Shown: piece by piece, positions 1,629-36,713 of the stretch
Layout of the letters: the number at the start of each line of letters is the position of its first letter
How positions within the stretch are numbered: position 1 is the stretch's first letter
DNA from: Azolla caroliniana
Lineage: Eukaryota > Plantae > Polypodiophyta
DNA length: 40,188 nt
Assembly: GCA_043228905.1 (NCBI GenBank)
Contig: JBHGNT010000281.1
Coordinates: 1 to 40,188 of the forward strand
Direction of reading: 5' to 3'
Program-made: the position numbers and the translations under genes
Notes under the pieces: model-generated
The model's input: the letters and a program-made list of their open reading frames with translations, nothing else
Told to the model about the DNA's origin: nothing
Databases searched by the model: none

Positions 1629-1659
1629 ACTTGTTTTGCTCCGAGAGTTTTCTTCCTGT

Positions 1660-8975: not shown

Positions 8976-9269
8976 TACATCAAGCTCAACAAACACACAA
9001 GGTTTACGCGGATCGTCATCGGCTTCCATCCAGTTTTGACATTGGAGATCAGGTGTGGCTACTACAACGACACATCAAGACTACTCGCCCATGCGAGAAG
9101 TTGGATTACCAGCGATTAGGTCCTTTCCGTATTATCGGAAAAATTAATGATGTCGCTTTTCATCTCGATCTATCTCCACAACTTCGGATACATCCGGTGT
9201 TTCATAGTTCTCTCCTCGAACCCTATCAAGACAACACCATCCCAGGTCATATTAAACAACCTCCACCCC

Positions 9270-12400: not shown

Positions 12401-12530
12401 ACAGCCACCCACACACAGAGTCTCTGTCTCTTGTTTCTTGTCTCTGTCACCCTCACCATAATACTCTGCACACGCGCCCGCTCGCAGTTTGAAAACAAAA
12501 AACAGAGAACAGTGACTGAGCTCTCTGGCT

Positions 12531-13861
12531 ATGGCGGCCTCCTCCTCCTCTGCTCTTGCTCTTGCTCTTGCTCTGCTGGCTTTCCTCTTCATCTCCTCCT
12601 CCTCTTCTTCATTGCTCTGTGCTGCCTCCACTACTCACGTCGTGGGCGAGTCCTCTGGCTGGACCGTACCCGACCGCACCTCTGATTACTCTCGATGGGC
12701 CTCTTCTCGAACCTTCTACGTTGGCGACGTCCTCGGTGAGAACAGAAAAGAACTAGAAAACCAAAAAAATCCTCTTGTCACTTCACATTGTTGTTGTTTT
12801 TTAAACTGCTCCTTTCGTATCTCTGATTCCGTTACAAATGTACGCCTTTATGGCACACATTACTTCTGCGTAGTGTCTTTTCTCTTCTTCATTCCTTTCT
12901 TCTTCTTCTTCTTCTTCTTCTTCTTCTAAATCCGTTACGCGTACTATGAACAGATTCGGTTTTTGTATAAGGTTTTAGAGCTTCTGGTTTCTGATTTCTG
13001 GTTGCGCCATTATTGCCTTGCATACCGACGAACTGAATGCGGTTCTCTCCATATCTCAGCCCACTCCCCCTCCTCAAATCGTAGTGGTTCTGGGCTATGG
13101 AGATAAATCTCAAGCAAATCATTGCTAGCTAACTAGCAGAATCAATCGAAACCCACATTTTTAAGTTATAGAATTTCCGCCCCCCCCTATTCTTTCTGTT
13201 ATCGATCTTAACTGATCGGAAAAACAGATATAGGCTATGGAGATAAATGCATTACCAGAATCATTGCCTGTAATAGAAACGTGAAGCGAACCATGACATA
13301 TGCTTCAACAGAAACCCTAAAACACGTATTTTTTCTTTCTTTTCAAGCTCAGCTTACATATTCCATTGCGCATATATATATATGTCTTTTAAATTTTAGA
13401 AGCTCTCTTTTATGCGACTTATCTTCGTGCTTGATCTTTTGGCAGAGTTCAGGTATGATAGTGCGGAGCACACAGTGCTAAAGGTGACGAGATCGAGCTA
13501 CAGTAACTGCAATATCACAGCTCCAATGGCGACCTTTGCAGATGGGATGTCTAGGATCACCCTCTCCACCAGAGGCTCTTACTACTTCATCTGCGGTGTC
13601 CCGGGGCACTGCGATGCAGGCCAGAAGCTTCAGCTCAACGCAGTTCAGCGACATCATCAAGCTCAGTCCCTCGCATCTCTACCTCCTCCCTCGCCATCGC
13701 CATCTCCTTCCCTCTCTTCGTTATCTCCACCTCCCATCTCTGCAGGTGGACCTACCATGTCTTCATCTTCATCATGTTCATCTTCTGCTCCATCTCCCTT
13801 TCTCCAGATTCTCGTTTCCTCCCTCTGTGCCATTTTTCTTGCTCGCTTCTGCTCTATTTAA
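12531..13861 (+). CDS. Phytocyanin (stellacyanin/mavicyanin-type blue copper protein), probably GPI-anchored; exons 12531-12735 and 13446-13861; 206 aa
   Basis: Signal peptide, HVVGESSGW and YSRWASSRTFYVGDVL|EFRY joined across a phase-1 GT-AG intron. Copper ligands are His (HTV), Cys and His (ICGVPGHC) and axial Gln (GQKL). A Ser/Pro-rich linker and hydrophobic C-terminus follow. Confidence 0.93.
12897..12927. repeat. (TTC)n microsatellite in the phytocyanin intron
   Basis: Directly visible. Confidence 0.9.
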
Positions 13862-16483: not shown

Positions 16484-17155
16484 TTTTTTTTTTCCCAAAA
16501 AAACATTACTTCACATTTGTTAGCAACTAGAATACAACAGAGTTTACCCGAATCCACAATGGGATCAACATATACAATGTGGAGGAACAACTCCAAAACT
16601 ATCAAACAAAAACAACAAAAACTCACTTGACCCTTAATTCCAACAAAACTTAAATAAACCCCATTTTACCCCGATTGTAAATCTTCCAATTAACTCTTTT
16701 CTTTTTCTTGCAACATTATCTGGGTAACATGACTATACTAACCCCCTTTTGCTTCAACTATACATACATAATTACAACCCATGTACAATATTGGGAGCCA
16801 TCGGTGGAAACAACCACCTAGGCGCACGGTAATTCCACTCAGGCCTCAACGAAGATTTGACCATCATGGGAGAACCACTCCATTTCAGCAAGAACTTTGA
16901 CCTTGCCCTTTCTGCTTCTTCCGATTCCACTTGAATCAAATCATACCGTCTGCGCAACCAAGCCACAAGCTCAAACAAGATATTTAACATCACCTCCCTG
17001 CATGAGAGCTTTCGCTGTTGAAAAACAAACTTACAGTGCATGATCCAGATGTGCCAGATCATTAACCACGCAACCATAAGCCAAATCTCCTCAAAAGATT
17101 TAGAATTTGTGCTTGGTCTCACCCCATCACATTGGAACACGCTACCACCCTGCAC
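16484..17155 (-). mobile_element. 5'-truncated L1-type LINE 3' end (ORF2 C-terminus and 3' UTR)
   Basis: ORF 16772..17155 contains IW..WHIWIMHCKFVF, the W..W..RN..F-type motif of the plant LINE ORF2 C-terminus. An A10 run on the minus strand at 16484-16493 may be the tail. Confidence 0.6.
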
Positions 17156-17584
17156 TATAAATCCATGTCCTTGTGGGTTTTAACTGTTCACCCTAGCTTT
17201 CCCCTTTTAGAGACAATCCTTGTATGGAGCCAAAAGCATACACATGGTAAAACCTCGAGGGATGGGACAATGCGATATGGGCGGGGTCTTGTGTCTTTGT
17301 CGAGTTACCAGGAAGTTGACCAATGGAGACTGTTCCTTTCGGGTGGGGTGAATGAATGAATGAATGAATGGGTGGGATTCTCTCACATTTTACATGGCGA
17401 TGGGATTGACAATTGAGAGTGTGTTTTTTCTTGTAGGCGTCATTTGTTTGTATTTCTTCTGAGTATATATATGTATACATACATATGTATATATGTAGTA
17501 TGAAGGAAGATCTTCCGCACAGACAGTGTAGTGTGTCCAAATCGATCCATCGATGCACGGAGCGTTTTGAAGTGTCCTGCACGC

Positions 17585-20500
17585 ATGGCCAAGACTCCTC
17601 ACTCTCCTCGCCGTTTCCTGCTCCTCCTGCTCTACATTCTCAGCTTGCACGCCATTTCCATCTTCTTCTTCACCAGAGGTTTCCTGCTCACCCGCAATGA
17701 GCTCCCCCTCTACAGCCGGTGTGGCGACATCTACGCGACCCAAGCCACCGTGGACCGTAGTTCGGATCAATGCGATAGAGTTGCCGTTGAAGAAAGTTCT
17801 TGTAATTGCTCCAGTGTTTTGTCAGATTTAGAAACAGGGAATTGCTGGACACGCCCGTTAGTGAACAAAGTTGTAATCTTAGTGCTTGATGCCCTCAGGT
17901 ATGCTTACCCCGCACACACTTTAGCACACTATTGTGCAGTTCGACGAATTGCAGATGTGAGCTTGTGAAGAACACAATCATTCAGTTTTTTTTTTTTTTT
18001 TTTTCCAAAATGAAGCTACATTCCCATTAGTTAGGAAGGATTATTACAAAGAGACTATACAAGGAGTCTTATACACGAAACGGGGAATCTCCCTCCGATC
18101 AAGTTCAAGAAAATGAGACTACTTACATAGCCACAATTATTCAGGTTTGTATATACATATGCATACATGTATGTAAGTAGGTGTGTATGTATACACGTGC
18201 ATATATATTCCAAAGAAAAGGTTTCAAGACTGGAATTTATCTCATCAAAACAACTGGCAGAAAATGGAAATAATGCTGAAAATGGTTCCAACCACATGGC
18301 ATAAATATGAATGCACTATCCCCATTCCAATATACTTGGACTGTCCACACTTAAACATGATCAGAGTGGAAAATAATAGAGTGATCTGAATTGATATCAT
18401 TAAATTGGATAATGAAGAAGATGGGTCAACCCCATAATGTCTTCTGGTATCAAGATCAGAGAGGAAAATAATAGAGTGATCTGAATTGATATCATTAAAT
18501 TGGATAATGAAGAAGATGGGTCAACCCCATAATGTCTTTTGGTATCAAGATGGCCTATTATAAGGTACTAATTCTACACCTGTCACATGATGGATTTATC
18601 ATCTGGCCACCTTATATGGATACATCTAGCTCATGCACTCCTTAGTCTGATAGTGTAACTCAAGTCCTCTTCACATCAGTCAGAGATTAAGATAGGTAGA
18701 TATATTCACAAATCTATGGAAGAACTAATATGCACTTGTGTCATCAGGGGTGAAATGAGAAGAACACTATATTTCCCATTATGCCAATTTTTATGAAATA
18801 AAAGGGTGATATCATGGTTTGTTCAAACAAGGCTTTGACCCATTGCATAGGCTAATATAACATCAAGAGCAATGGTGAGTAGAACTATTCTTGCAAATAA
18901 TCCAAGAGACATTGAGAGAACTTGTTGAAGGACAACAATATAAACACTATAGCTAGATAAAAAGAATCGACACAACTTTCTTTAGCTCCACCACTCATGC
19001 CACAAGTCAATCAAAGGTTATACAAGTATGGTCTTGACTAAGACACTCGCAAGGGACTACAGTGGATCGGGCAATAAAAGCTTGTCACCAATAGGACCCA
19101 ACCATTTAAAGCACAACCTATGCCCCAGCCATTCACTCGGCAATGAAGGTGCTTCCCTCACCTTGGATACCTCTCTATCTTGGTTCGGCCCATGGTAGAA
19201 GTTTCAGCCTATCTAACTTCGTAATTTTAAATGCTTAGATAACATGACTCTTTGGTACCTTACGTCTAGTTATATTCATTTATTTTGGTTTGTTGTTCTC
19301 AAAGACAAGACAACATTTTAAGATGTAATCTAGGTCATGTTAATATATCTGTTCTTTTTCCGTTCTTTCTTCTGTTGGAAATTTTCACATAATCAAAAGA
19401 TCTGTGAGATATATTACCTGTTTTGTCTATCGTAACTTTTTAATGTGCTGATTGTTATTATTTTGCTATTGTAGCATAATAATAACAATTTTCCCTTTTT
19501 GACCTTTTCGGTTCACCTTTCAGGTTTGATTTTGCTGCTCCCAGCAAATTATTTACTTATAGTAAGTATAATTCTAGTGCCCTATCTCCATTCAGGGAAA
19601 ATATGCTTGGGACGAAATTCATTTAGCTCGTTTTCTAGAGCCCCAACCATGGATGGATAAGCTGCAAGTACTCCAACGACATGCGTTCGAAGAGAGGTCA
19701 GCTGTATTGTTCAAATTTATTGCTGATCCCCCAACAACAAGCTTACAACGTTTGAAGGTTAGATTGTTGAGTTCTATTTCATAATAATTAGATAATGAAG
19801 TGAATAAAGTAGATCAACAAGTTAATAGAAACATAGATTAGAATGCATCCCACACATGCATAAATGGAGCCATACAGAATGGTTTCTATGTTTTCCTTTC
19901 CCTGGAAAACATTTTAATTTTAAGAAAGATATATCTATCATAGTGTATATAAAAATACAGTCTCACACTCACGAGAATCTTTGTAAGAGGAGTATATGAT
20001 GGATGGAAACTGCAGAAGTGGCATTGGTACCAATAATCTCTGGCATGAGTCAGGACAAGACATTGATGTCACAAGCTTTGGCACATTCATATTTTGGAGT
20101 TACATATATTGTAGTAGGGCCTCACACAATCTTATCTCATTGATGGCTTATCAATCGTATTTTATTTTAAGTCTCGATAGAGGACTCCAAGATGCTCAAC
20201 CCTTAGGTGTTGTGGCCTTGCTTGTACAGTTGGGATTCACTGTCATATTTACTCAGGGGTCTTTGGCAGAATAATTGTTTGATTCATATCCCAAGCATCT
20301 ACGCCTTACAATGGAAGTAAAGGTATAATGAGGAATGGGGAGAATGAGGTGGGTTGTATAATATTCTTATACATCAGAGAAAAATGAAAGGATAAGAACT
20401 TGGGAAAGGGATATAAAATGATCAAATTTGGTGTATGAAATTAACAATGGACTGATGAGTAATAAGTATAAAGTATTGGTAAGGGAGGCCAAATTCACCA

Positions 20501-23500
20501 CATTTGTAACTAATTATAGTTGGAGGGTGGCAACTCCAGACCTGCACTCTCTTTCATCTTTATTATCTCTCTTTTACATTCTCTCTCTTCCTAGATTCTT
20601 CTCTCTCTAGAATTTGCAACTCTTTAAATGCCTTCTCTCTCTTCCACTTTTTCCAAGATATTCCCTCTTATTCCTAGTTTATTGTACATGTTTGGTAGTA
20701 CAAGAGTCACTTAACTACCAAACAACCATTTCACCCACTTTCCCCAGTTTTGTATAAATAGGCTATACCAGCCTCTTTTGTAAAGACTTTTATTTTTGCT
20801 ACTACTTACAAACAAGCTCTACTGTTTGGCTGTGTCTCTACTCTTTGCAACCATTTTTTCTACTGCTGTCTAACAGCCTTCTCACAGCTTGGCTGTGTCT
20901 GTTTTGTTCTAACAACTCTTCCACTGCTGCTATTAACAGCTTTTCTCACATGGTATCAGAGCAGTGAGGTCTCCATATCCTCAGCCTGTTTTTTTTGCCA
21001 AAGAGCACACATACCTATTCTCTTTTATCCCTCCCTCCCAACCCTATAGAGGAGGTTCTCTTAGCAGCCACCCTCCCAACCTATAGAGGAGGTTCTTCGT
21101 TTTTCTTTTCCCCTCATCTGAGCCTCGCCTAGCATCTAGGGAGGAGTAGAAAGCCCTGAGCATCTACCTACAGCTGCTGCAAATTGTCTAGTTGTAGCTC
21201 AAGTGGAGGATATCCATGGCCTCACATGCCACCATTGTTTCATCCACCATTCCCCAACTCCCGAAAGAGTCCATCTTGGATGGGAACAATTACTTGGATT
21301 GGGAATTACAAATAAAGACCTTGCTACAGTACCATTGTCTATGGAATGTAGTCAATGGTAGTGACAAGAAACCACCGGTAACTTTATCCTCTTCAACCAA
21401 ATCAGTTGCTGGCTCATCTAACGCTGAGATTGATGCTTGGCTAGATAAGGATTCTCATGCTCATGCTTTCCTCATGTTTAATATTAAACCGAGCATGGCT
21501 TGTCAATTTCAAGATACAGATGAAGAGACAGCCAATGAACTATGGGCAGCCATAAAAAAGAGGTATCATCGAGCTAATCATGCCCAAATGATAGCTATTC
21601 AGAGCCAACTAGCAAATCTCAAGATTCATGACACTCCCAACATCATGGATCAAATAATGCAATTTGTTACTCTCTAAAAGGAACTAGTTTCTTTGGGAAG
21701 CAAGTCAACTAAGTTGAGTTTGTGCATTGTCTAATGTTAAAGTTGCCAGAGTCATTCTCAGCCTTTTGTGACACAATTTTTCTTCTTCCCAACACGCTTA
21801 ATATGAATACATTTCTTGGCATGCTACAAGGCAAGGCAACAAGGAAGAAAAGTGCTCAAACTTCCAATGAGACGCTTCTACATGCGAAAAGTAAAGGCAA
21901 GTGGAAGCAAAATGGCAACTCCTACAACAAACCCAATCCGAGACCACCAAACAACCCGGCCTTCAAGGAGGTCACCTGTCATTATTGTGGTTACAAAGGT
22001 CACATTCAGCCCGACTGTGGTTAGTAGACAGTGGTGCCACTGCACACATGACTTATGACAAATCCATTTTGCATGATGTGAAGCCTAGCTCCTACCAAAT
22101 CTCCATCGGAGATGCCTCAAGCATTGAGGCTTCGTTTGTTGGTAATGTGTTTCTGAACACTTCTTCAAATGATGAAGCCGTCGTTCTTCAAGATGTGCTA
22201 CATGTGCCTCACATCTCTGCCAACCTACTTTTGGTCTACTGAATCACTAAGCAAGGTTATGGAGTCTACTTTGATAGCTCAGTTCTGGAAGTCATTGACA
22301 CCAACAACCTACAAATTGTAGCTAGTGGCACACAAGAAGGGGGTTTATATCGCTTGAAAGGTTCTCGTAGCCCCTTGGAAAAATCCAAATCTCATCTTCT
22401 TCATCTTCTTCAAGGCTCTCATGCATTGGTGGCACAAGAATATCCCACGTTGTGGCATGCTAGGTTTGGTCACCTCAACTACGATTCTCTACAAAAGCTC
22501 TCCTCTTCATAGCTAGTTGAGGGTTTGCCTATTTTCAAAACTCCCAATACCCCATGTGTTGCTTGTCTTCACGGAAAGCAACATCGAGAGCCTTTCCCTC
22601 ATGAAGCCACTCACTATGCAACATCTATCTTGGAGTCAGTGCACATGGATCTTTGTGGTTCCATGAAAACCACTACTCTTGGTGGTGCATGCTACTTCAT
22701 GCTTATCATTGATGTAATATCTTATTTGGTCTTATAGGCCATTTTGGCCTCTTAAAAGACGTTAATATATCTTTCTTTCTTTCTTTCTCAAAGACAAAAG
22801 CTACAATATACCTAACTTGAGAATCTCACATGTGCCAAAAACCAGATTCCCTCGTTTCTTCTCTTTTCATCTTATTTACTTTTATATTTACTGTGTAATA
22901 TTTATTTTATTTTTATTTGTTCTCAAAGATGAGACAACACTCAAGATGTAATCTCTCTCATTTGGTCTTATAGGCCATTTTGGCCTCTTAAAAGACGTTA
23001 ATATATCTTTCTTTCTTTCTTCTTTTTCGTAAGGTTTGGGTTTATTTTCTTGTAGAAAAATCTCAAGCCTTCACCAAATTTCAAGAATGGGTAGCTCTTG
23101 TGGAGAACACGACAACAAAGAAAGTTCGAAAGATCAAGTCCGACAATGGTGGAGAGTTTATCTCCCAAGCTTTCCACCATTTTTTCTCTCAACGAGGCAT
23201 TGCTCGCCAATTTCTACACCCAATACTCCTCAACAAAATGGAGTTGTGGAAAGGAAGAACCGGATCGTTCAAGAGATGTCTCATACAATGCTATCTCAAT
23301 CTGATCTTCCTCTCTTGTTTTGGGGTGAAGTTGTCAACACAGCAGTCTACATCATCAACTGCTGCCCAACAAAAGCAGTTCCTGCAATGACCCCTGCGGA
23401 AGCATTTATAGGTGTAAAGCCCTTAGTATCTCATTTTAAAGTCTTTGGTTGTGATGCTTATGTTCACATTTCAGATCATAAAAGGACGAAATTTGAGTCC

Positions 23501-26500
23501 AAAACCAAGAAATGCAAATTTCTTAGTTACAACACACAATCTAAAGCCTACAGGTTATGGGATTTAGAATCAAAGTTCCTAGTCATCTCTAGGGATGTTC
23601 ATTTTGTGGAGTCTAAACCGGATGACAGTAGGATTTCACATGAGTTCACGGTTGAAATTCTAGCTCCTCCGGAATCTCCTATTTTACAAGATGTCTCACC
23701 TTCAAGGCCCCCATCTCCTCCTACTCAACCCCTAACTTCACCAACAATTCAAACCTCTCCCTCAACTCCACTCGTTTCCCCTCCCTCTACACACCAGTTT
23801 CCACCACTTCCCCCAAGTGGCTTCAAGCCACCTTTCGTGATTCTCATCTCTCCGATGCTGAACATCATGAGTATACATCTGGTTCTCCAACCAACATGAA
23901 AAGAACACGTAGGTCACAACGGCCTCTTCACTCATGCAACTTTGCCTTACGGTGCACTGTTGTGCAATCACAAGAATCCACAACAGCAAAAGAGACCCTT
24001 GTTCTTCCAAAGTGGAAAGCAACAATGGAAGTTGAACTTGATTCCATTGAGCAGAATCATACATGGGAGCTGGTCCCATGGCCTCAACATCGACAAGTCA
24101 TTGGACTGAAATGGATTTTCAAGACCAAGTACCATGTTGATGGTACTTTGGATAAGCACAAGGCACGTTTAGTTGCAAAAGGTTGCTCACAAGTGGAAGG
24201 AGTGGATTACGAGGAAACATTTGCTCCAACAACAAGGTACACCTCTATTCGATGTGTGCTTGCGCTTGCTGCTCACCACAAATGGCCCATCTTTCAAATG
24301 GATGTCAAGTCAGCCTTCCTTAATGGTGACTTGAAAGAGGAAGTTTATGTTGAACAACCTCCAGGTTTTGAGATTTCAAAGCGGGAAAACATGGTCTACA
24401 GGTTACACAAAGCCTTGTATGGATTAAAGCAAGCTCCGAAAGCTTGGCATGACAAAATTGATACCTTCTTTCTCTCACTTGGGTTTACGCATTGTTATGC
24501 TGACAACAATCTCTATGTCTTTTCCCAAGAAAATCTGCTATGCTTGATCATATTATATGTTGATGACCTTCTAATTACAGGGTCCCTTGTTTCTAAAATC
24601 GAGGAGCTTCGTGCTGACCTTAAAACCACATTCGAAATGACTGATCTAGGACTTCTCCATTGCTTCATAGGTATGGAGGTCTATCAATCAAATGGTGGTA
24701 TCTTCCTCAGCCAACATAGGTATCTCAGCCAGCTCCTTCAGACCTATGGCATGTCAAATTGCAGGCCACTCTCTTGTTCGATGGATCCTAACTCAAAGCT
24801 ATCTCATGAAGATGATTCTCCCATATTTGAAGATATCACCAAATATAGAAAGTTAATTGGGTCTCTTCTTCACTTACACCAGGCCTGATTTGTCCTATAA
24901 TGTGAGTATTCTCAACCAATTCTCAAGTGCTCCGAAACAAAGTCATTGGCAAGCAGCAATACGAGTTCTTAGGTACTTGGCCAACACACTCGACTATGGT
25001 CTATCTTTTAGAAGTGGCATTGAGTTTGTTGGCTACTCGGATGCTAATTGGGCAGGTGATATTGATTCTAGAAGGTCCACATTTGGCTATTGTTTTATGT
25101 TAGGTTCATGCTTGATTTCTTGGAAATCAAAGAAGCAAATTTCAGTTTCTACTTCATCAACAAAAGTTGAATATTGAGCCTACTTGGATACTTTTTGTGA
25201 ATTGCTATGGTTAATGCAATTATTTTATCACATTGGTGTTTTGCAAGACTCTCCTATAGCAGTTTTCATTGACAACCAAAGTGCTTGTGCCTTGGCACAT
25301 AGCTCGACATTTCATGGTAGAACAGAACATATTGAAGTGCACTACCATTTAGTTCGTGAATTAGTGAAATCACTAGTCATCAACATAGCATATCGTCCTA
25401 CTCAAGAAAATGTGACTGATTTATTTACTAAGCCCCTTCCAAGGCAAGCCATTGATCAGCTCCTTGGTCGACTCAATGTTGGACTGCCGTTCTAGAGCTG
25501 AGAGGAGGTGTTGGAGGGTGGCAGATCCAGATCTACACTCTCTTTCATCTTTATTATCTCTTTTTTACATTCTCTCTCTTCCTAGATTCTTCTCTCTCTA
25601 GAATTTGCAAGTCTTTAAATGCCTTCTCTCTCTAAAATTTGCAACGCTTTAAATGCCTTCACTCTCTTCCACTTTTTCCAAGATATTCCCTCTTATTCCT
25701 AGTTTATTGTACCTGTTTGGTAGTACAAGAGTCATGTAACTACCAAACAACCATTTCACCCGCTTTCCCCAGTTTTATATAAATAGGCTATACCAGCCTC
25801 TTTTGTAAAGACTTTTATTTTGCTGCTACTTACAAACAAGCTCTACTGTTTGGCTGTGTCTACTCTTTGCAACCATTTTTTCTACTGCTGTCTAACAGCC
25901 TTCTCACAGCTTGGCTGTGTCTATTTTGTTCTAACAACTGTTCTGCTGCTGCTATTAACAGCTTTTCTCACAATTATTTTGAATTGGGCTGTCTTTTAGG
26001 GGCTAACAACTGGTAGTCTTCCTACCTTCATTGATGTTGGGAACAGCTTTGGGGCGGCAGCTATTGTGGAGGACAACATCATTAACCAGGTTTCTTGATA
26101 TTATTTTATTTAGTCTTTATTTTACTTGAACAGCTTTAGGGTGGCTGCTATTGTGGAGAACAGCATTATTCACCAGGTTTTGTGATGTTAATTTGTATTT
26201 TTTCAGCTTTCTAGCAATGGAAAAAGAATCATCATGATGGGGGATGATACATGGCTGCAGTTGTTTCCAACAGAATTTACAAAAACATATCCCTTTCCCT
26301 CATTCAATGTCAAAGATTTAGACACTGTAATGACATTCTCAACCTCTACAGGATGCTTTTTATCTCTATTGCTATATTTATGTGAAAGTAAAAGTTGCCC
26401 AAATATGTTGGTGATGTATTGAAATGATTGCTTGCAATATGTGAAGTGTAAACAGCAACATGGCATTACAACATATTAAAATCCAGGACAAATAGCTTAT

Positions 26501-29500
26501 GAACACAGCCAAATTTCTTGTGTTTGTAGGGTTTAAAAGTCAACTGAACTAGAAAATTTCAAAACTATAAAATTCTTAAAAACCTGAAGTAGCTGCTCTG
26601 GTTTTGAGTTTCTCTTAAAAAGACACAACTCATATCAATGCTTGATGTGAAAACAGGTGGACGATGGTGTGGTAGAGCATTTGTTTCCTGCATTATATGA
26701 AGACAGCTGGGATGTGCTCATAGGACACTTCCTAGGAGTGGTGTATTTTTTCTCTAAATCCATTCACATATATTGTTTTTGTGTAAGGCAAAAGAATGTA
26801 TGCATACTGAACAGAGTGATGTTCAGGATCATGCGGGCCACATTTTTGGAGTGGAATCATCACACATGGTTGATAAGTTGGAGCAGTACAACAAAGTTCT
26901 GGAGGTTTTATTGCTGCTATATGTCAACTTGAGTTCTGGATGTAATTGTTCGCAAATGGTTTTGACCTTTATAATTGCTCCATATTTCTTGCAGGATGTT
27001 ATATCTGTACTTCAGAATCATTCGTTTCCAGGTGGGCTCCATGAAGACACATTGCTTCTGGTAATGGGTGATCATGGCCAGACATTGAATGGAGATCATG
27101 GTGGTGGAACAGCAGAAGAGGTAGATCATATTTTAATATTTATTTAATCATGTAAATGTCAAACTATTATATACGAAACATGCCTGTATGTTTCATTTTG
27201 TACTCTTTGCAATTTAATTTATTCCTCTACTTTTCAGAATCATTCAAACAAGAGTTACTTCTGGTTGAAGTTTTCCAATTCGCTGATTTTTGTTCGATAT
27301 GAATTTTATTAGGTGGAGACAGCATTGTTTGCATGGAGTACAAGATTTCCAGTTCATTCTTCTCTACAAATTTGTCCATGCACTGTAGATTTGGTAAGTA
27401 AGGTATTGTGGAGTAGTTTATAGTTGAATCACACATTTAAATTCATCATAACTTGTAGATCTATTTCTTGCGTTGAATTTTTTCTTTTTGTTTTGAGGTC
27501 AGAACTAATAAAAATAAACAAAGGCATTTACAAAATGAGTATATGCCTTAAGACCCACGTTTTAATGAAACTTGTAAAATGTTTTGTAATGTAGCAAAAC
27601 CCATCATTAAGTAATTTCTATCAGAATGTACAATATACATAAGAGAGCAATATTTCTTGAGGCACTAACCAAACTGTCAAAGTTCATCCATATGAGGTAT
27701 ACTTTCTATTTCACAATGGCATTCAGGAGATCAAGACATGATTAAAGCCAAAAGAAGCTGGAGACAAAGAAGTGTTACGTGGTGACTCATTGAGTCTTTA
27801 GAGAATTTTAGTTACTAATTTCCACCTCTATAAACAGGGGTGCTTAAATCTCCCTCTACTGAACATATATGCATATAGAGAAATCTTCATCACGGACAGA
27901 GTGTAAAGGTACAATGGTTCTTTACAGAGACAAAATACATCTTTCTACTTAGGAACCTCTTCAGACATCCCAATGATAGTTCAAATATTTCTCTGCTGAT
28001 AGAGCCATCCAGTTTAGATGCTCTACACGTCCACTGACATAAGAATTTTCTCACAGGAGGTGTGGTACAGAGAGTATGTGACATCATTGATCACCATGAG
28101 AGACCCTCAGGAGGGGCAGAGTGTGGGGGGTGCAATGGTCTTTTACAGAGATAACATACATGTTACTACTTAGGCTCTTCGTCAAAGATCCTAGTGACAG
28201 GATACCATTTTCCTCTTGATAAGGCCCTCCAGTTTGGGCGCCCTAAACTTACAGGGACATGAGTCTTCATACAGGTGTGATCTACTTCATGTTGGTGGTG
28301 ACATTCCCAGAACAAACTTCTATCTTCCACGCTCTCTTGCTACACATTTTTCGCTCTCTACATTTACTTCGTTTCAGTTGACCTTTTGAATCTGCCATTT
28401 CTTCATTACAGAATTACGACATTGTTCATTTCCCTTCACATTCATATTTCTTTGTTTGATTTTCTAGTTGTGGTACATGTTTTTGTGTACAGTGGCATCT
28501 CTCTCTCTCTTACACACACATTATAATTGCTCTCAATTTAATGTTCTAGCTCTTTGCTGTTTTTGATGGATTTCATTACTTTGCAGGGAAAGGAGAACAA
28601 TTCATGCATATGTGACTTTCAACAGGTTGGTAAGTTTTTATTTATTTGTGGGTATATGTATTTACTGTGGAATGAAGATGTTGTGACAAATTACATATTT
28701 TTGTAGCTTGATTTTGCTGCAACATTAGCTGCTATTGTGGGAGTACCACTTCCCTTCGGGAGGTAGTTATTTTTCTATGCCTGATTAACTTGATGACCTG
28801 TAATTCTAAAACCTGCATTAATTCATATTCATGTATTATAAAAATGTAGTTCAATTATATAATACCATGTTTTTGATTAAAATGTTGTTGCTAGCTTATA
28901 AAGATGCCGACTGCTAATAATCAGTCTAGATACATTGGCTTAAAGATTAAGCATTGAGATCCTACTTTCCCATTTTCTTAAATACGCTTTCATCTGGAAT
29001 GCATCAACAAGCTTTCAATTATCAACAACTCTTATTCTCTGTTGTTTGTTTGGTTAAAAGTAAAATGTTAACTGCATGGCTGACTGAGTTATTTACTTCA
29101 AAAATGTAGCATCGGACGCATCAATCCACAGTTATTGAGTTTGCTAGGTGGATCATGGCCAACTCGTACTGTTCAATCTTCTATGAAAGAGGAAGATGGA
29201 TGGCTTAAGTTAAAGTGGTTGGAGGGTTACCATCAGCTACTACGTCTTAACGGCTGGCAGGTTTCGTTCTTTTTGAGACGTTCACAATGTTCATTTAACA
29301 GATGATTGAAGTTTTTTTATTGTGTCTATTTAATTTTTAGACATTTGTAAATATTGAAATGCTAAAATATTCAAACTGCTTGCACAAAAAAAAAGCTCAG
29401 AGGCGCTTCTAACATTTCGTTACAGCCTTCAATAATTGAAGGACAAAAATAATAAATCTATATGACCTAGAAAATTAGTCTTCTGGGTACAAAAGGAAAC

Positions 29501-32500
29501 AAAGGTATTTTTGTTATTCTAAGCAGATCCATTCAAGTTCTTCAACATGGTCCAAAAACGTGTCAGAAATGCATTTGAATGACTAGAATGGGTGCACAAT
29601 AACCATCCCTGAAATGATGAGAGGAGGCTCAGGCAAGGAAACAAGTTAGGGGATGATAAAATGGAAAGCTCAAATATTTCTGTATCTCATGTCTATGAGC
29701 TGCAAAAAGCTTTAACATATTAAGCATAAGATTCCTTCCATCATCTCAAAGGCCCCATCTGAATTGATGTTGAAATAGTATATGTGAGCATGTCTCAAGT
29801 ATAGGTTTGAACCATAGATGGTTGGGAAACTCCTGGAGATGTAAAAAATATAATGCACTGTTGCATTGTGAATCTTTGTGATTGTAAAAATCCACTGTTT
29901 CATGCGTGCGCCAAGCATAGACATCCAATATCACTATGTGTGCAATTTTGATTAAGGACCGCACAGTTTAATGGTTGTCTGATAGTCCAACATTCATTTT
30001 TAATGTGAATATTGGAAAGATCTGCTTCAGACAACTTCCAAAGACTTAAATTGGGCCTAGAAGGGAGTCTTGTCTTTGGGTGTGTCTTGAGAAGGGGTGC
30101 TATGTTTTGTTAAGACTCCAGCCTCTTTAGGTACCACCAATGCTCCATGATGTCAAAGTTGAAAGCTTCCATTAGGAGAAGACATTTGAGACCTAGAAAT
30201 CTGTTAGATCTGGAGTTGGACGTCATGTAAGGTCTAATTTGTGATACTTGATGGTTGAAAGATGATCTATGTGAATTGAGGATTTCTGTTGGGAAGTGCA
30301 ACTAAGTTGATGGAACATTGAGACCCCAATTTGGAAAATTGGATATTTTACCCAACCAAAAAAGCATTCTGAGGTCCGTTTTACAATAATATAAAATGTA
30401 TAAATATAAAGAAGCAATTGATATTCCAATTTTAATCTAAAGGTAGAGTTCGTCACCTAGCCATCCAAATTTAGTGCTGTATATATCTCATTAGTAAGGC
30501 AAAAACCTTCACTCAAAATTTTTGTGCTCTCTTACTATCACGTTTTCTTTACTGTGAGTTATGTGTACACGTTTGCGGTTGGAATTGAATTATTTTCATT
30601 TGGAATTATTTGAGATGAGCTTTGAAAGAAAGTTTTCATAGCACCATATGCTAAGATGACAGATGAGGAAACCCAGTTATGGATATGGGCATGTACCCTT
30701 CACAGATTCATCAAATCATTTTCATTTGGAATTACATCAGAAAAGTTTTGAGCTATGCCATAGTATCATATTGTAAGATGACAGATGAGGAAACCTGATT
30801 ATGGACTGGCATTAGGGGACAGAATATCTGGCATTAGTGGAGATAACTGCAGACAGCGTTGCTTGGCATTTCCTCCTTGGGATGAATAGATTGAGAATCC
30901 TGTAGTGATCATAAATCAGTGGTGACACCAAACAAGTTGAGATAGCAGGAGCCCATTTATGTACAAGAGTTGGCAATGCTTTTGGGCCTTAAAGTTGTGT
31001 ATAAGGTTCAAATAAAGTTTATGTCCTATAATAGTGCCCTAGTACCATAGATTTTCATTCCCTTGTTTATGAAACCATATTGATAGCTTCATCTATCATT
31101 CAGGGTTTATATGCAGTCTTTTAAGCCCAAGTCTGCTTTCAACAATTCCCATCCTTGAGCCCTCATAATTCTGTAAATGAACCGGTCTACAGTTAACCCT
31201 AGGCACATGCTATGATTCTTAACTCTCAGAAACATGCTGTCATCATAGTATAACTTGTGATGTAACTATATAATGCATAAAACTGAGTTATCATCAGGAC
31301 ACGATGGTAAATTTGATATGTTTATATGGAAAGAAACCTCGGAATCAGGCAGGTGCCATTTGACCACATCTGATCCTGTAGAGTCTCCAGATCTGTTTCC
31401 TCTACCATTTGCATATGTTTCTGTGATTGATACGTACTTTATTAACACGAACTCTCCTAAGGTTTCCTTGTCTCCTGATGATTTAACGTACATTAATTTT
31501 TTTTCTAGACAAGACATTTAAAGAAATTCAGAAAATTCAGAAAATTCAGTTGTTGGTTTGTTTCTTAGGTGAATCGTTACTTTGAGCAATATGCAGAATC
31601 AGTTATGAATGGGTTCTCAACAAGTGATCTCCGCAAGCTACAGATGTTGTATTCCCAAGCTCAGTCAGCTCTACCACAGTTTTCGAATGTCCAGGAGCCT
31701 GGTAAAGATTTGAATGAAGCTATGGTTATGCTCTCTGATGCAGTTGGGAAGTACACTAAGTACCTAGATGCTAGTGCATCACTTGCACGATCCAAGTGGA
31801 CCCAATTCTCAGATGACATGATGGGATTAGGCCTAGTGATACTTTTCATTGCTGTGATTATCCAAATTAATGCAGTGTATAAAACTGGGGGAGTCGACTC
31901 TAATATAAATTTTGAAGATTGCAATAAAATATTTCCTCTTCATGAGATGCTCAAAGGAAGCATTGTGTTTGGCATATCCTTTGGCATCTTTGCAGTTTTA
32001 TCCTCAATAATGATATCATCTCTATCCCAAGCATCTACATCCCTATCATGGAATCAAACAATAATGACCATCATTGGAGGAGCAATCTTTGGCTCGGCAA
32101 AATCATTAGTATTTCCTGGAAAGATAATTGCACAGGAGAATGATTGTAAGAAGATAACAGGAATGCAGACTTTCATTAACCTGGCTATATCAGATCCCCA
32201 AGGAGCTGTAGTAATTCTCTTTTGTGTGATGTATGCCTGCAGCTTGCTTTCAAACAGTTATATATGTAAGCTTGAATCTGCACGGTCTTAAGCATTATTT
32301 TCTTTGCTATATCAAGAGTAATGAGCAAATATTCTGATAATGTGCGTTTATTTTCCTTATTCTGATAATGAGCATTTTTTTGTAGTGAAAGAGCAGCAGG
32401 TAGTTACATTTTTCTTAGTCTCTTCTGGATTTCACAGTTTAAGACATGCGATACAGAAAAAGTCGAAAGCTCCACAGGTAAAATTGACACGTCCCGATTG

Positions 32501-35500
32501 ACTAACCCATTGATGCTGTTGATATATGATGGATACTATCTATACCTCTCCTTTATTAGGCACACATTGATCTTTGTATCAGGCATTGTGGCTATAGGTT
32601 GTAAACCTGTATACTAGACAGATTTCCTAGGAAGAGGTACCTTGGAGGAGATCTTGAGGTCTACATGGTGTACATTTCAATATTTCACCTTTTTTACTCC
32701 ACAAAAGATGAGAAATGCCATTGATAGGTTACAATTTGGAAAGACCCAAGGTCATGATGGCTTGTTTGCTGAACTTTTATTTGTCTGTGACACGTTGCCC
32801 CCTCTTCTTTCATAGAGCTATGTGTGAAGGTTTCCCCAGTATATGGACAGAAAATAGTATTGTACTGATCTTCAAGTGCGGAGATCCCATGATACCTAGC
32901 AATTATAGTTTAGCAATACTTGGCTAAACTATATAGTTCAATCCCAAAGTCAGAATTGAATGTATGGGCAGAGAGAAATGACTCTTGCGCAGCTGGACAG
33001 GCAGTTTTCTGAAAGGGGCTCTCAATGTCAGATAACAAATTGACCCTTTGAGTCCTTATTCAGGAGGGAAGAGCGCATAAAAGGAGAATCTGCTGTTGCT
33101 TTGTGGGATTCTGGAAAGCTTTCGACATTGGACTGTGCAATTAGTTCATGTAAGGACTAGAAGCCCATGGAGTCCCTATAGATATGCAATAAGTACTATA
33201 TGAATCAGTGTCAACAAAAAGTCTGCTCTCCTATTGGGTCATTAGAGGCCGTGGCTAACATGAGTTGTTAAAGTGGGGTCTCTATCACAACACTTGAAAT
33301 GGGTCACAATAGATCAGGAATAGTAATGTGTCATGCCCGTTGGCCACAACCATCTGTGCCACAGTCCTTGTTTCCATATGATCGAAAAATAAAGGCCATT
33401 ATCACCCAGTACTGAAAGTACTTCTTTCGCTTCGGAGATCTCTCTGTTTTGGAGCGTTCCATGTCAAACATTTTTTAAAGGCAGAAGTTTGGTCATCTAA
33501 GTTCAGAATCTATTGGCCATTTTGGCCTCTTGAAGGATGTTAATATAGCTTTATTTCTTTTCTTTCTTTTTTTCATCTACTGCTGATACAAGTGATTCGC
33601 TTTATGCATTGGTTGTTTTTAGTAAGATATTTCTTTGGCATGATATCTGATTATTTTTGTAAGTGCAGGTCATGTGCTTTCTCGCAATGAATTTTCTTAT
33701 GGGGCGCTTTGGTTCTAACACTGTTTTCAAGGATGTGGAATTTCAAACAAATGAAACAGTATCATACTTGACCACGTCAGCTGTTATTGAGCAATCTGTT
33801 GTCATCTGCTTCACTCTGTACTTGCCATTGCTTGTCTTGGGCTTTTACACTGTTAAAAAGCTGTGGAGCTCTTGTTTTCTGCAAAGTAGTTCTTCTTGGG
33901 TCGTGTTCTTTGGTGTACCCCTATCATATATAGCCTTAATGCTTCATTGGTTAGTTGGTGACCTTGTCAAGCTGCATTTGCTTTTCATTCCTGAAACTGC
34001 CAAAGAACTTGTGAGGTTGCGGTTACCTCAAATAGTTTATTACATTGTAGCTCTTCAGACTTTGTTGTTGGTTTATGAGATCAAAGACATTGAGCACAAG
34101 AATATGAAATTTCGGCTGAAAAATCTTCTTGAAGATGCTGCCATGTTGTGTATTGCTGTATGGGGCAGTCTGATATTATTGCTGCTTGGGAGGCAGGGAC
34201 CCCTTATCACTTTGATTGCTGCTATAGAAGGTAGAAAAATCGGTTTCTACAGTTTTGACTCCTAATATATTCATGATTGTTCCGTTTAAGTTGAACCAGG
34301 CCTCAAGATTTCATTATTTTCCCATCTTAACTTGGGTCAGTGGGTATTTATGCGTCAGTAGAGGATATGTATAAAATGGCCAGCCGTGCTGAATGAAGTC
34401 TAGGATTTTTTTTGAATACATATGATGGGATCTTCTATTCTCATGTGCATATAAAAGCTTTAGGAATGATGGTGGAATATTCTGTTTTCATCACTGCAAA
34501 TGTCAGCGTTCCAAACTTCATTGAAATTTTTTAATGAATATTATACACATTCTTAATGTGAATTTCACAGTTATACAAGGTGTTGGTTGAAGCTTCATAT
34601 ACCAGAATCTTATGTCTCTTTTCTAGGTTGGTCTCTTATGAACATGCAATTTCCATGTTCATCTCCATTGAAAGTACCTGCTGTGGATGGAGTATACAGT
34701 GTCCCAGATTACTCTTTTGCAAATTTTCAGTGGAGTCTTTTTGCAGTACAGATATTCTTTTCAACGGGTCATAGGTAACTGTGCATCAATACACTTCATA
34801 TTTTAGGATGCAATTTGAAAATTCCCCATGAATTCAATTGTTCTATGATTACTGCTCGTTCCATAGATGTGCTTTTGATGGACTACGGTATGCTGCTGCC
34901 TTCGTAGGGTAAGGATTTAATTTTTTGGGTGCATGTATAGAACCATGTATTTTCACTGATTAATTTGTCTTCATCTACAGATTTGATCAATTCAACATAT
35001 ATCGTCAGGGAATTCTTCTTGGGATTGATACATTTGGAGCTTCTCATATACTCCCCGTGGTTGGACTAGCAGTGCTGGTTGCAAAGAGAAATTCAGGGAC
35101 TGGAATGTTTTCCTCCAATGCATTTTATAGGTCACAGTTTTTTCAGGTTCTTACACTGCCATTTTTTGTATTATAGTAAGCTATAATCCATGATTATTTA
35201 CTCTTGGTCATGCCAGTTATACAAGGTGACATTTTTTGTATTATAGTATGCTATAATCCGTGATTATTTTATAAGCTATAATCTGTGATTATTGTACTCT
35301 TAGTCAAGCCAGTTATATGAGGTCAAATTAACACTTTGTACGCGAAGGTAGATACATTATTAGTGAAAGAGGTAAATCTTGACCAGAAATGAACTAGACA
35401 CCCTTTATGAAACAGCCACTGACCGGTAGTGTGGTGGTGTATATGATGCATGACGTCTGATCCATATAGACTAGAAAGAAAGAAAGATATATTTACTTCT

Positions 35501-36713
35501 CATAAGAGGCGAAAATGGCTTACAAGACTGAATAAAAGATGACACGAGAACAATGTATCATATTGGAGAAAAACCAAAATTTGTAAATTAGTAAGTAAAT
35601 TAGTAAAACTGCCTAGGGTACCAGATATTCCTGATAGTTAACACACAAATGGTGTAATTTTAAATGAATGAGAACTTTTTGTTTTCAAAAATAGGGACCA
35701 ATAATGGTTTACGAAACGGTAGAAACTACAATTGGTTTTGTTTATATTGGGTGAACCTCAGCTGAAAAAATTTACCATTCTAAACGTGGTCTATGAAATC
35801 AAAAGTTTCTGTTCCAACTTCCAGCCATATGAATGTTTACAAAGTGCATGATTGAAAGTTTTTAAACAATCAGCTTAGTTTTCAATCCATCTTTGTCCCA
35901 AATTTGTGGCAACTAATTGGGATGTTCCAGATATAAGATGATCCTCTAGATTCAAATACAGCTTCGTACGTACCGAGAATCAGGCACAAGGTGCCCAACA
36001 GTAAGGGATTTTGTATGCTCCTTTTAGCGATACAGATTTTGCTTTTGGAAAGAAAAACATAAGCTTATAGCAAATCGGGAGAACATTTTGGCCATAGAAA
36101 CTAAATTTTAAGTATAGGCAAAACAATCAATGTATGCCTGCATATTTACTAGGATATCCATTAGTTTTCAAGTCTTACCAGAATACCATTTAGCTTTTAC
36201 TGCTTGACATTCAAGTATAGGGCAAAACCACCAATTTACAACTTTTTGCATATTTACTAGTATGCCCCTCAAATTTCAAGAATTTCTGGACAGCACTCAA
36301 TTTTTACTGCCATACCCTAGACAATGACACTCTATTTTGTTTATAAGAATACAAAAATTTAAAATGTATAACTCATCTTGTATAATGCCATTAAATCCTA
36401 AATTTGACGTCTTCCATTTGAATGTAGGCATTATTAATGTATGGGCTGGTTCGGACGGTGACAACCTTTTTCACTACTGTGTGCGTAACAATTCAGAGAC
36501 GTCATTTAATGGTATACTGCCTTCATTCGTATCTTTTGTTGTTGTTTTGTTCCTTTTTTGTCGTTTCTAATGTGTTTACTCTCTTACTTGATTGTTGATA
36601 TTTAGGTATGGGGATTATTTGCTCCTAAATTTGTTTTTGATGCTGCTGGCTTGCTGGTGACTGACGGCATATTGTTTCTCTTCTATGCATTGTGCCTTCC
36701 TCTTCTTAAATAG
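17585..36713 (+). CDS. PIGO: GPI ethanolamine phosphate transferase 3 (PIG-O/GPI13), 20 exons, ~1064 aa
   Basis: Exons, all GT-AG and frame-consistent, 3195 nt in total: 17585-17898, 19524-19561, 19639-19757, 26000-26089, 26207-26326, 26657-26740, 26827-26904, 26995-27120, 27313-27393, 28587-28625, 28707-28762, 29110-29260, 31569-32265, 32386-32477, 33669-34230, 34627-34774, 34867-34908, 34981-35146, 36428-36511, 36606-36713. Motifs: [82 protein letters not shown] and [14 protein letters not shown]. Confidence 0.95.
18359..18551. repeat. Near-perfect tandem duplication, 95-bp unit x2, in PIG-O intron 1
   Basis: GATCAGAG(T/A)GGAAAATAATAGAGTGATCTG...GGTATCAA starts at 18359 and again at 18454, with about 2 mismatches. 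Confidence 0.92.
18552..19375 (+). mobile_element. RTE-like LINE 3' fragment (C-terminal Cys/His region and 3' UTR) in intron 1
   Basis: Decayed SHQ.EI.IGRY...EE.IC.C...EEHY...FYEI.G.YH.LFKQGF. The 3' end TTGTTCTCAAAGAC..AAGATGTAATCT..GTTAATATATCT-CTTT is shared with the 22715-23027 insert. Confidence 0.65.
20518..20950 (+). repeat. 5' LTR (433 bp; begins AG instead of TG)
   Basis: Direct repeat of 25509-25972, roughly 96% identical by eye. TATAAATA near 20753. Confidence 0.93.
20951..20962 (+). promoter_or_regulatory. Primer-binding site complementary to initiator tRNA-Met
   Basis: TGGTATCAGAGC immediately after the 5' LTR. Confidence 0.93.
22715..23027 (+). mobile_element. Short retroposed insert (two tandem RTE/SINE 3' ends) in the copia integrase
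   Basis: Interrupts YFMLIID|..RKVWVYFL. Two copies of TTTGGTCTTATAGGCCATTTTGGCCTCTTAAAAGACGTTAATATAT(CTTT)n. Confidence 0.8.
25509..25972 (+). repeat. 3' LTR (464 bp, with an internal ~34-bp tandem duplication)
   Basis: TG...CA ends, follows the PPT, and carries an extra copy of CTCTCTA.AATTTGCAA..CTTTAAATGCCTTC absent from the 5' LTR. Confidence 0.93.
26041..26200 (+). repeat. Diverged tandem duplication of the exon 4 3' half plus its splice donor
   Basis: GAACAGCTTTGGGGCGGCAGCTATTGTGGAGGACAACATCATTAACCAG|GTTT (26041) versus GAACAGCTTTAGGGTGGCTGCTATTGTGGAGAACAGCATTATTCACCAG|GTTT (26128). Confidence 0.88.
27895..28280. repeat. Two diverged ~220-bp tandem units in intron 9
   Basis: CAATGGT.CTTTACAGAGA.AA.ATACAT.TT.CTACTTAGG...CCAGTTT...GACAT.AG at ~27912 and ~28133. 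Confidence 0.6.
29650..30070 (+). mobile_element. Highly decayed Ty1/copia RNase H remnant in intron 12, possibly followed by an LTR remnant
   Basis: [18 protein letters not shown] (29886-29940, with a frameshift) and a purine tract AGAAGGGAG near 30059. Confidence 0.6.
30593..30813. repeat. Diverged tandem duplication (~125-bp period)
   Basis: TTTTCATTTGGAATTA...TAAGATGACAGATGAGGAAACC...TTATGGA occurs twice. Confidence 0.7.
32690..33575 (+). mobile_element. Decayed RTE-like LINE fragment (RT N-terminal part and 3' tail) in intron 14
   Basis: [16 protein letters not shown]...SNY, AKLYS, GQA.F..G and CCFV.F.KAFD-like motifs. Ends in GGCCATTTTGGCCTCTT..GTTAATATA.(CTTT)n at 33516-33573. Confidence 0.7.
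35161..35317. repeat. Short tandem duplication (~70-bp unit, 2-3 partial copies) in intron 18
   Basis: ATTTTTTGTATTATAGTA.GCTATAATCC.TGATTATT is repeated, and GCCAGTTATA occurs twice. Confidence 0.75.
35473..35536 (-). mobile_element. Isolated antisense copy of the RTE/SINE 3' tail
   Basis: Reverse complement reads TTATTCAGTCTTGTAAGCCATTTTCGCCTCTTATGAGAAGTAAATATAT(CTTT)n. Confidence 0.65.

What the first reader, a model, noticed from the sequence alone, without database searches (positions are those of the whole stretch)
20505..26000. Copia inserted on the predicted branch point of PIG-O intron 3; the LTR end may supply a replacement
The empty site reads ..GTAACTAATTATTTTGAATTGGGCTGTCTTTTAG|exon 4. 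CTAAT fits the CURAY branch consensus, with its A 27 nt before the exon, and that A is the first base of the TSD. The insertion moves CTAAT 5.5 kb away. The 3' LTR end offers CTCAC (A at 25970, -30), TTAAC (25958) and CTAAC (25934), but also a competing CAG at 25959-25961 that would add 38 nt and shift the frame. The ORF is otherwise intact and the LTRs are ~4% diverged by eye, so the insertion has been tolerated. This may be exaptation of LTR sequence as a splicing signal in a probably essential gene.
Basis: partly seen in the sequence, partly recalled or inferred. Interest (0 to 1): 0.72.

Follow-up and report, generated by a model that had tools for sequence, protein, structure and literature searches.

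The report
Jumping gene displaces fern splice signal
An old, broken jumping gene sits 27 bases in front of the most conserved exon of a fern membrane-anchor gene, cutting off the predicted splicing branch site; the gene is still intact, so it is likely still spliced, probably using a look-alike signal that the element's end carried by luck, but this has not been shown at the RNA level for the insertion allele.

Summary
A 5,455-bp same-strand Copia (LTRs 4.0% diverged, target duplication ATTAT, about ten coding breaks) lies in intron 3 of a fern PIG-O gene. Its target duplication starts on the A of CTAAT, the best U2-pairing site of the empty intron (-27). The junction is real (independent contig; a second sample), and three relatives' haplotypes carry the empty site. 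The 1,064-aa frame and all 19 GT-AG pairs are intact (about 2% expected if neutral since insertion), so in-frame splicing to 26000 is likely. LTR CTCAC (-30) scores as well as the lost site and better than host-retained adenosines; about 5% of random donor sequences do that. Against 'exaptation': the only RNA contig showing 19757>26000 carries empty-allele letters. The LTR end is unmodified (last 27 nt identical in both LTRs). A loose YUNAY match arises by chance in 35-42% of trials. One empty allele appears to lack the supposed branch A. The LTR also holds a better-scoring frameshifting acceptor (CTAAC -28 / CAG). Verdict: passive, lucky co-option of an LTR branch site (about 50%) versus host-retained adenosines (about 30%). 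TE-borne branch points are a known kind; the filled/empty allele pair makes this a clean test case.

The parts
17585..36713 (+). PIG-O (GPI ethanolamine phosphate transferase 3) gene, 20 exons, 1,064 aa, all 19 introns GT-AG
   Evidence: groups with the Ceratopteris protein 100/100
19639..19757 (+). exon 3; donor GT at 19758
   Evidence: RNA-guess contig of X15 covers it and joins it to exon 4
19758..25999 (+). intron 3, 6,242 nt with the element, 782 nt without
20510..20514 (+). displaced branch-like motif CTAAT (A20513, -27 in the empty site; pairing score 10); a second site GTAAC (A20509, -31, score 9) overlaps it
   Evidence: use as a branch point is predicted only
20513..20517 (+). 5' target-site duplication ATTAT
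20518..20950 (+). 5' LTR (first base T>A); holds decoy acceptor CTAAC(-28)..CAG ending 20939
20951..20962 (+). primer-binding site TGGTATCAGAGC (initiator-Met type, label recalled)
   Evidence: sequence
21216..25495 (+). degenerate Copia gag-protease-integrase-RT-RNaseH frame; at least 4 stops, 6 frame changes, one ~160-nt gap
   Evidence: Pfam; tblastn against P0121, 73-91% identity per piece
22723..23027 (.). ~305-nt nested high-copy repeat inside the integrase region
   Evidence: gap between pieces; repeat family D7/I5/I7
25500..25508 (+). polypurine tract
   Evidence: sequence
25509..25972 (+). 3' LTR
   Evidence: junction identical in locus L001 and in an X2 contig
25931..25961 (+). decoy acceptor in the 3' LTR: CTAAC (A25934, score 12) 28 nt before CAG 25959-25961; frameshifting if used
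25955..25959 (+). candidate LTR branch site TTAAC (A25958, -42, score 12; the CAG is only 2 nt downstream)
   Evidence: predicted only
25967..25971 (+). candidate LTR branch site CTCAC (A25970, -30, score 10, no AG between it and the acceptor)
   Evidence: predicted only
25973..25999 (+). retained host end of the intron: 3' TSD plus 22 nt, with weak candidates A25976 (-24, score 5) and A25982 (-18, score 6) and the acceptor TAG
26000..26089 (+). exon 4, 30 codons, most conserved exon of the gene (21 of 30 columns shared by at least 90% of 85 homologues)

Best explanation
A same-strand Copia retrotransposon inserted on the predicted branch site of intron 3 of a fern PIG-O gene, and the enlarged intron is likely still spliced to the native acceptor at 26000, probably by branching on an adenosine in the unmodified end of the 3' LTR (CTCAC at -30, or TTAAC at -42). 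Shown: the insertion, its position, empty alleles in relatives, the intact host frame, the decay of the element. Inferred: the insertion came after the split from the empty-site relatives (introns 4.7-5.7% diverged) and long before the two insertion-bearing haplotypes split (0.4%), so it has lasted most of this lineage's history. Inferred: it survived because the family's LTR end already offered U2-pairing sites equal to the lost one at the right distance while the host's U-rich tail and AG stayed in place; that is a survivor filter, not remodelling. Predicted: the better-scoring decoy CAG 38 nt upstream (and its twin in the 5' LTR) is mostly passed over because the U-rich host tail marks those 38 nt as intron, any leak being lost to a stop at codon 164.
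For: Junction real: L001 is identical to window 25881-27439 (0 differences in 1,559 nt); X2's single 7,001-nt contig runs 25 nt into the LTR end, flat depth 20, no second path. Empty alleles: one X9 contig maps to 20374-20512 (record 170-308) and resumes at 25976 (record 312); X10 and one X3 haplotype leave the window at 20514. Selection after insertion: P(no stop and all GT/AG/ATG intact) = 0.0185 at the LTR clock (0.004-0.09 over the range tried); window versus X2, both with the insertion, 0 replacement, 2 silent, 13 non-coding differences (about 3 replacements expected, P about 0.05); the element took about 10 breaks in 4.1 kb. Exon 4 is the most conserved exon. Pairing scores: lost site 10, LTR sites 10 and 12, host-retained sites 5-6; random donors reach 10 in 4-5% of trials. 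A branch A very close to an AG can send selection to the next AG (PMC3017782, passages); stronger B-boxes tend to outcompete weaker ones (PMC4315302, passages).
Against: No RNA from the insertion allele was seen: the X15 contig with the 19757>26000 joint has non-window letters at 19547, 19559, 19681, 26210 and 26230, shared with X9. No lariat data. X9 appears to lack the A at -27, so the lost motif may never have been needed. 4 of the other 18 introns have no site scoring above 6, and 5 of 18 lack YUNAY altogether, so weak host sites can suffice. The score is a crude hydrogen-bond count chosen after seeing the sequence. The window lineage has two atypical residues (H132 where 61 of 85 homologues have L; S189 where they have V, A or I), and 7 of the 10 listed exonic differences from X9-type alleles change the residue, a hint of loosened constraint. 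In 5,305 of 13,873 Arabidopsis introns a more distal AG is used (PMC12746065, passage), so first-AG logic is not strict.
Confidence: 0.5

Rival explanations
1. The LTR is a bystander: splicing uses adenosines that stayed with the acceptor (A25976 at -24 in the TSD copy, followed by a U-run, or A25982 at -18), which may have been in use before the insertion.
For: X9's empty allele appears to have lost the -27 A but keeps the -24 A (alignment ends), and the spliced X15 contig shares X9-specific letters at 29179, 29204, 29207 if these contigs come from one allele. 13 of 18 sister introns lack CURAY. Plant branch points sit in U-rich context and about 20% of introns have several (PMC12746065, passage); 32.4% of human exons have more than one (PMC4315302, passage).
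Against: These sites score 5-6 against 10-12 for the LTR sites. X9 still has GTAAC (-31) as a possible fallback if unchanged, which I could not read. The loss in X9 is deduced from where the alignment stops; the letters were not shown.
Confidence: 0.3
2. The allele is a tolerated hypomorph: part of the transcripts use the decoy CAG (25961 or 20939) or end prematurely in the same-strand LTR, and enough correct message remains, perhaps with the help of heterochromatin-linked read-through.
For: The decoy has the best branch score in the region (12 at -28), a 50-nt AG-free zone and 9 of 14 pyrimidines against 10 of 14 for the native site. Sense LTR insertions near exons are over-represented among mouse mutations (20 of 26; PMC3088655, passages). 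IBM2/EDM2 prevent ectopic 3' ends in long heterochromatic introns in Arabidopsis (PMC5364540, passages). Two atypical residues in the window lineage.
Against: No contig joining exon 3 to 25962 was listed, but the loose-end table was cut (371 rows not shown) and contigs drop rare forms. The allele has persisted for about 4% LTR divergence with the frame intact. X15 holds the window letter at 27364 beside the X9 letter, compatible with expression of a window-type allele, though unphased.
Confidence: 0.15
3. The insertion killed this copy and the gene is decaying, with another copy doing the work.
For: No insertion-allele transcript seen; several replacement changes on the window lineage.
Against: No stop, frameshift or splice-site loss (P about 0.02 from substitutions alone; about 4e-4 at the element's own break rate); X2 shows one contig at flat depth and no second copy at 85% or more identity over 25948-29400; 0 replacement against 2 silent changes between the two insertion haplotypes.
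Confidence: 0.04
4. The family targets branch sites or its LTR end mimics a 3' intron end as an adaptation to intronic life.
For: The LTR end falls in the top 5% or so of donors.
Against: One insertion only; no genome was held to survey other copies. The same end carries a harmful decoy acceptor.
Confidence: 0.03

Closest known systems
Ty1/copia LTR retrotransposons (Pseudoviridae); nearest protein P0121, unnamed, 90% identical over the RT region
   Same: LTRs, 5-bp TSD, PBS, PPT, gag-PR-IN-RT-RH order
   Different: This copy is dead (about 10 breaks, nested insertion) and its first base is T>A; its clade within Copia was not determined.
Branch points carried by inverted Alu elements (Mercer 2015, PMC4315302, passages seen)
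   Same: An unmodified TE consensus motif lies at branch distance from an acceptor; 154 mapped cases
   Different: There the TE supplies the whole acceptor of a new TE exon; here only the branch site of an old constitutive host exon would come from the TE, in a plant, from a sense LTR, and nothing is mapped.
TE under-representation zones near exons (Zhang 2011, PMC3088655, passages seen)
   Same: Full-length, sense LTR element next to a splice acceptor is the class most purged in mammals
   Different: This one has persisted; mammalian numbers may not transfer to ferns.
RPT5b intron 7 branch-site variant in Arabidopsis (PMC3017782, passages seen)
   Same: Competing branch-like sites shift 3' splice-site choice and give partial mis-splicing
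   Different: A point change, not an insertion; its branch points are also predicted only.
IBM2/EDM2-dependent tolerance of heterochromatic intronic insertions (PMC5364540, passages seen)
   Same: Long insertion-bearing intron spliced out whole
   Different: Concerns 3' end processing, not branch choice; not tested in this fern.

Membership tests
Ty1/copia LTR retrotransposon | Two direct LTRs bounded by TG...CA | tested here: met
   3' LTR TG..CA; 5' LTR AG..CA (one change); 96% identical
Ty1/copia LTR retrotransposon | 5-bp target-site duplication | tested here: met
   ATTAT on both sides; a 5-nt single site in X9's bridging contig
Ty1/copia LTR retrotransposon | Integrase upstream of RT (RVT_2); copia-type gag | tested here: met
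   Retrotran_gag_2, Pol_BBD, rve (below its curated cut-off, split by the nested insert), SH3, RVT_2 in that order
Ty1/copia LTR retrotransposon | PBS after the 5' LTR and PPT before the 3' LTR | tested here: met
   sequence at 20951-20962 and 25500-25508; the tRNA-Met label is recalled
PIG-O / GPI ethanolamine phosphate transferase 3 | Full-length similarity and tree placement with named plant PIG-O proteins | tested here: met
   50% over 1,081 columns to the Ceratopteris protein; fern clade 100/100. No PIG-G outgroup was in the tree; names come from source annotations
PIG-O / GPI ethanolamine phosphate transferase 3 | Transfer of phosphoethanolamine to the third mannose; essential function | not testable with these tools
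   Activity seen only as a reference title; embryo lethality seen for another GPI gene, pnt1 (PMC7437025 passage)
TE-derived branch point | Host branch-like site removed from the acceptor by the insertion | tested here: met
   as a motif only
TE-derived branch point | TE supplies a U2-pairing site 18-45 nt from the acceptor | tested here: met
   scores 10 (-30) and 12 (-42)
TE-derived branch point | Insertion allele is spliced at the native acceptor | tested here: inconclusive
   joint seen only on a contig with empty-allele letters; indirect support from selection
TE-derived branch point | Lariat maps inside the TE | not testable with these tools
   only assembled contigs were available
Adaptive exaptation | TE sequence changed or measurably constrained after insertion | tested here: inconclusive
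   last 27 nt identical in both LTRs, so no gain of a motif; under 1 change expected in 45 nt, so no power to show constraint

The most novel reading that the evidence does not exclude
A retrotransposon LTR end now serves as the working branch point for the most conserved, constitutive exon of a single-copy GPI-anchor gene in a fern, while a better-scoring LTR acceptor 38 nt upstream is ignored; filled and empty alleles, including a plant that appears to carry both haplotype types, form a ready natural experiment on how plant spliceosomes choose branch and acceptor.
Probability: 0.45. Interest if true: 0.55.

Novelty: new member of a known kind. Interest (0 to 1): 0.4.

Why it matters
Plant branch-point rules are loosely defined, and insertions this close to an acceptor are normally purged. 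If lariats map in the LTR, this would be a mapped plant case of a TE supplying a core splicing signal to an old housekeeping exon, and would explain survival of such insertions by a chance filter. If they map in the host tail, it shows that a textbook CURAY site can be dispensable. Either result is cheap to get. The broader idea (TE-borne branch sites) is known, and this scan has noted similar unverified cases elsewhere, so the conceptual gain is moderate.

Tried and rejected
No whole genome was held, so no survey of other copies or paralogues in the assembly. No RNA holder on record was listed; X15 is an RNA guess, although its contigs skip introns. 5 of the 22 listed runs were laid (X15, X2, X3, X9; X15, X3, X9, X10), on two separate flanks, so no joint across the whole element was read and the empty-site letters were crowded out of the cut loose-end tables (371 and 221 rows not shown); the empty-site reading rests on record coordinates. 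Lack of X15 cover in introns or of a 25962 joint is not used as evidence. Assembly artefact: rejected. Exon 4 skipping keeps the frame (90 nt) but would delete the most conserved exon: rejected as the main product. Absolute age: not given; 1.6-9 million years over four recalled rates, none calibrated for this fern. No solved structure for the closest homologue P0006 (0 hits). Zhang 2019 (plant lariat map) was not held and is cited only second-hand. PMC6326789 gave one uninformative passage. Searches for a printed plant case: 5 papers, none relevant by listing; 33 papers, 20 listed, none by title; 0 papers for five exact phrases; subscription literature and supplements were not seen, so absence from print is not established. 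No paper on plant PIG-O mutants surfaced. Earlier-findings look-ups by place, by sequence and by eight words returned nothing.
Full report
Observation. The element spans 20518-25972 on the same strand as the host gene. Its LTRs (20518-20950, 25509-25972) differ at 17 of 430 aligned columns (K2P 0.041) with three indels, and ATTAT flanks both ends. Pfam finds copia gag, protease, integrase, SH3 and RVT_2 in Copia order. Against an intact family protein (P0121) the copy shows six frame changes between seven pieces, at least four true stops, a gap of about 53 codons and a 305-nt nested insert. The host is PIG-O: hits are named GPI ethanolamine phosphate transferase 3, a 20-exon model gives 1,064 aa with no stop and 19 GT-AG introns, and it groups with Ceratopteris at 100/100 in a tree of 19 chosen rows, so the host is a fern.

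Is the insertion real and how old? A metagenome contig is identical to 25881-27439, junction included; it may be the same clone. In run X2 (another sample and study, same species label) one 7,001-nt contig at flat depth 20 covers 25948-29400 with 15 differences and runs 25 nt into the LTR end without branching at the TSD. X2 therefore carries at least the 3' junction with no sign of an empty allele or of a close second gene copy. In X9 (another species label) a 2,878-nt contig maps to 20374-20512 with record bases 170-308 and resumes at 25976 with base 312: an empty site with five bases where the TSD is. X10 and one X3 haplotype follow the window to 20514 and then leave it. Divergences are 5.5-5.7% (X9), 4.7% (X10), 4.0 +/- 0.9% (LTR pair) and 0.43% (X2). 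The insertion thus postdates or roughly matches the split from the empty-site relatives and is far older than the two filled haplotypes. Whether X3's window-like haplotype has the element was not shown.

Is the gene still working? Indirectly, yes. At the LTR clock (2% per copy) the chance of no stop and of all splice dinucleotides and the start codon surviving is 0.0185 (0.004-0.09 over the range tried); at the element's own break rate it is about 4e-4, an upper-bound rate since some breaks may predate insertion. Between the two filled haplotypes there are 13 non-coding, 2 silent and 0 replacement differences, with about 3 replacements expected (P about 0.05). Exon 4 is the most conserved exon. 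Against this, 7 of the 10 listed exonic differences from X9-type alleles change a residue, and H132 and S189 are atypical window-lineage residues; the lists are cut, so this is only a hint.

RNA. X15 (RNA by guess) has a 537-nt contig that joins exon 2 to 3, exon 3 to 26000 and goes on to exon 5 (loose end at 25998 matching the end of exon 3). This confirms the gene model. But the contig has non-window letters at 19547, 19559, 19681, 26210 and 26230, all shared with X9, while X2 has the window letters at the two of these places that were laid. It most simply comes from an empty-type allele. At 27364 X15 holds both letters (5.8 of 12.2 depth for the X9 letter), which fits but does not prove expression of a window-type allele.

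Branch-site logic. By a simple U2 hydrogen-bond count (motif recalled; score chosen after the fact) the lost AACTA[A]T scores 10; the LTR offers TTCTC[A]C at -30 (10) and TATTA[A]C at -42 (12, with the CAG only 2 nt downstream); host-retained sites score 5-6. Best sites of the other 18 introns range 0-11, four of them 6 or less; 5 of 18 have CURAY and 13 of 18 YUNAY. Pasting real sequence in front of the retained 27 nt gives a YUNAY in 35-42% of trials, a CURAY in 6-9%, and a score of 10 or more in 4-5% (strict) or 7-11% (loose). So a weak replacement is commonplace, an equal one is uncommon, which is what a survivor filter predicts. The last 27 nt are identical in both LTRs, so the motifs came with the element. 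X9's alignment stops at 20512, implying that the supposed branch A is changed there while the A at -24 is kept; branch A and the -2 U are normally more constrained than coding bases (PMC10711541, abstract, first part and passages), which weakens the premise. The LTR also carries a decoy acceptor, CTAAC (-28, score 12) with CAG, in both copies (20939, 25961); eight such decoys lie in the element. Use of 25961 stops the frame at codon 164.

Mechanism and odds. Most likely (0.5): the intron is removed whole, branching in the unmodified LTR end, a lucky co-option kept by selection. Next (0.3): host-retained adenosines do the job. Partial mis-splicing (0.15) can overlap with either. A dead copy (0.04) and family-wide mimicry (0.03) are unlikely. 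Shown: structure, position, empty alleles, intact frame. Inferred: correct splicing of the filled allele, essentiality. Predicted: branch position and decoy avoidance.

Comparison. TE-borne branch points are documented for inverted Alu exons (154 mapped; PMC4315302, passages). Sense LTR elements near acceptors are depleted and often mutagenic in mouse (PMC3088655, passages). Competing branch sites shift acceptor choice in Arabidopsis RPT5b (PMC3017782, passages). Plant branch consensus is loose and about 20% of introns have several sites (PMC12746065, passages). Long insertion-bearing introns need IBM2/EDM2 in Arabidopsis (PMC5364540, passages). My searches found no printed plant case of an LTR-supplied branch site, within a partial library. 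Earlier notes of this scan describe similar unverified cases in two mammals and a fungus; in the fungal one the spliced message was explained by an empty allele, the same trap found here.

Verdict. Real and well supported as an insertion that displaced a good branch-like motif and was tolerated; LTR-supplied branching is plausible but unproven; adaptive exaptation is unsupported. New member of a known kind; interest 0.4.

Noticed in passing
window 22723-23027; also 19277-19331, 33498-33563, 35473-35544 (inverted): A short high-copy repeat with two 66-nt direct copies is nested in the Copia integrase and has relatives in three PIG-O introns; contig depth at 19294-19337 is 15,800-26,700 against about 20 in the flank. 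TRIM-like or retroposon-tail-like; not classified.
   Followed up: partly
window 26041-26107 and 26128-26194: The 3' part of exon 4 with its donor site is duplicated in intron 4 (84% identical); present in X9 too, so older than the Copia, and skipped by the X15 contig.
   Followed up: partly
window 19681 and 26210: Window-lineage residues H132 and S189 fall at columns that are hydrophobic in nearly all of 85 homologues.
   Followed up: partly
runs X3 and X15 over window 19250-20546 and 25400-29400: X3 holds two haplotypes about 5% apart in introns, and X15 carries X9-type letters despite sharing the window's species label: hybrids, mixtures or loose labels.
   Followed up: partly
window 20355-20374: X9 and X10 contigs both break here and resume with 157-169 unaligned bases, suggesting another insertion in their intron 3.
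   Followed up: no
window 5529-6970: Large foldback element: nested inverted arms of 120-170 nt at 87-93% with internal palindromic units.
   Followed up: no
window 18356-18545: 95-nt tandem duplication (97%) in PIG-O intron 1, within sequence that looks like decayed retroelement by eye.
   Followed up: no
window 451-3778 (-), 8903-9289 (+), 16772-17179 (-): Other retroelement remnants: a broken gag-pol-like run, a Tf2-type SH3 fragment (Pfam 2e-17), and an unassigned 135-aa frame just upstream of PIG-O.
   Followed up: no
window 12516-13861 (+): Two-exon plastocyanin-like (phytocyanin) gene with a hydrophobic tail, a possible GPI-anchored protein next to a GPI-pathway gene; probably coincidence.
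   Followed up: no
window 39520-40188 (+): Start of a further gene cut by the window end; the last frame resembles a mitochondrial import J-protein by recall, not tested.
   Followed up: no
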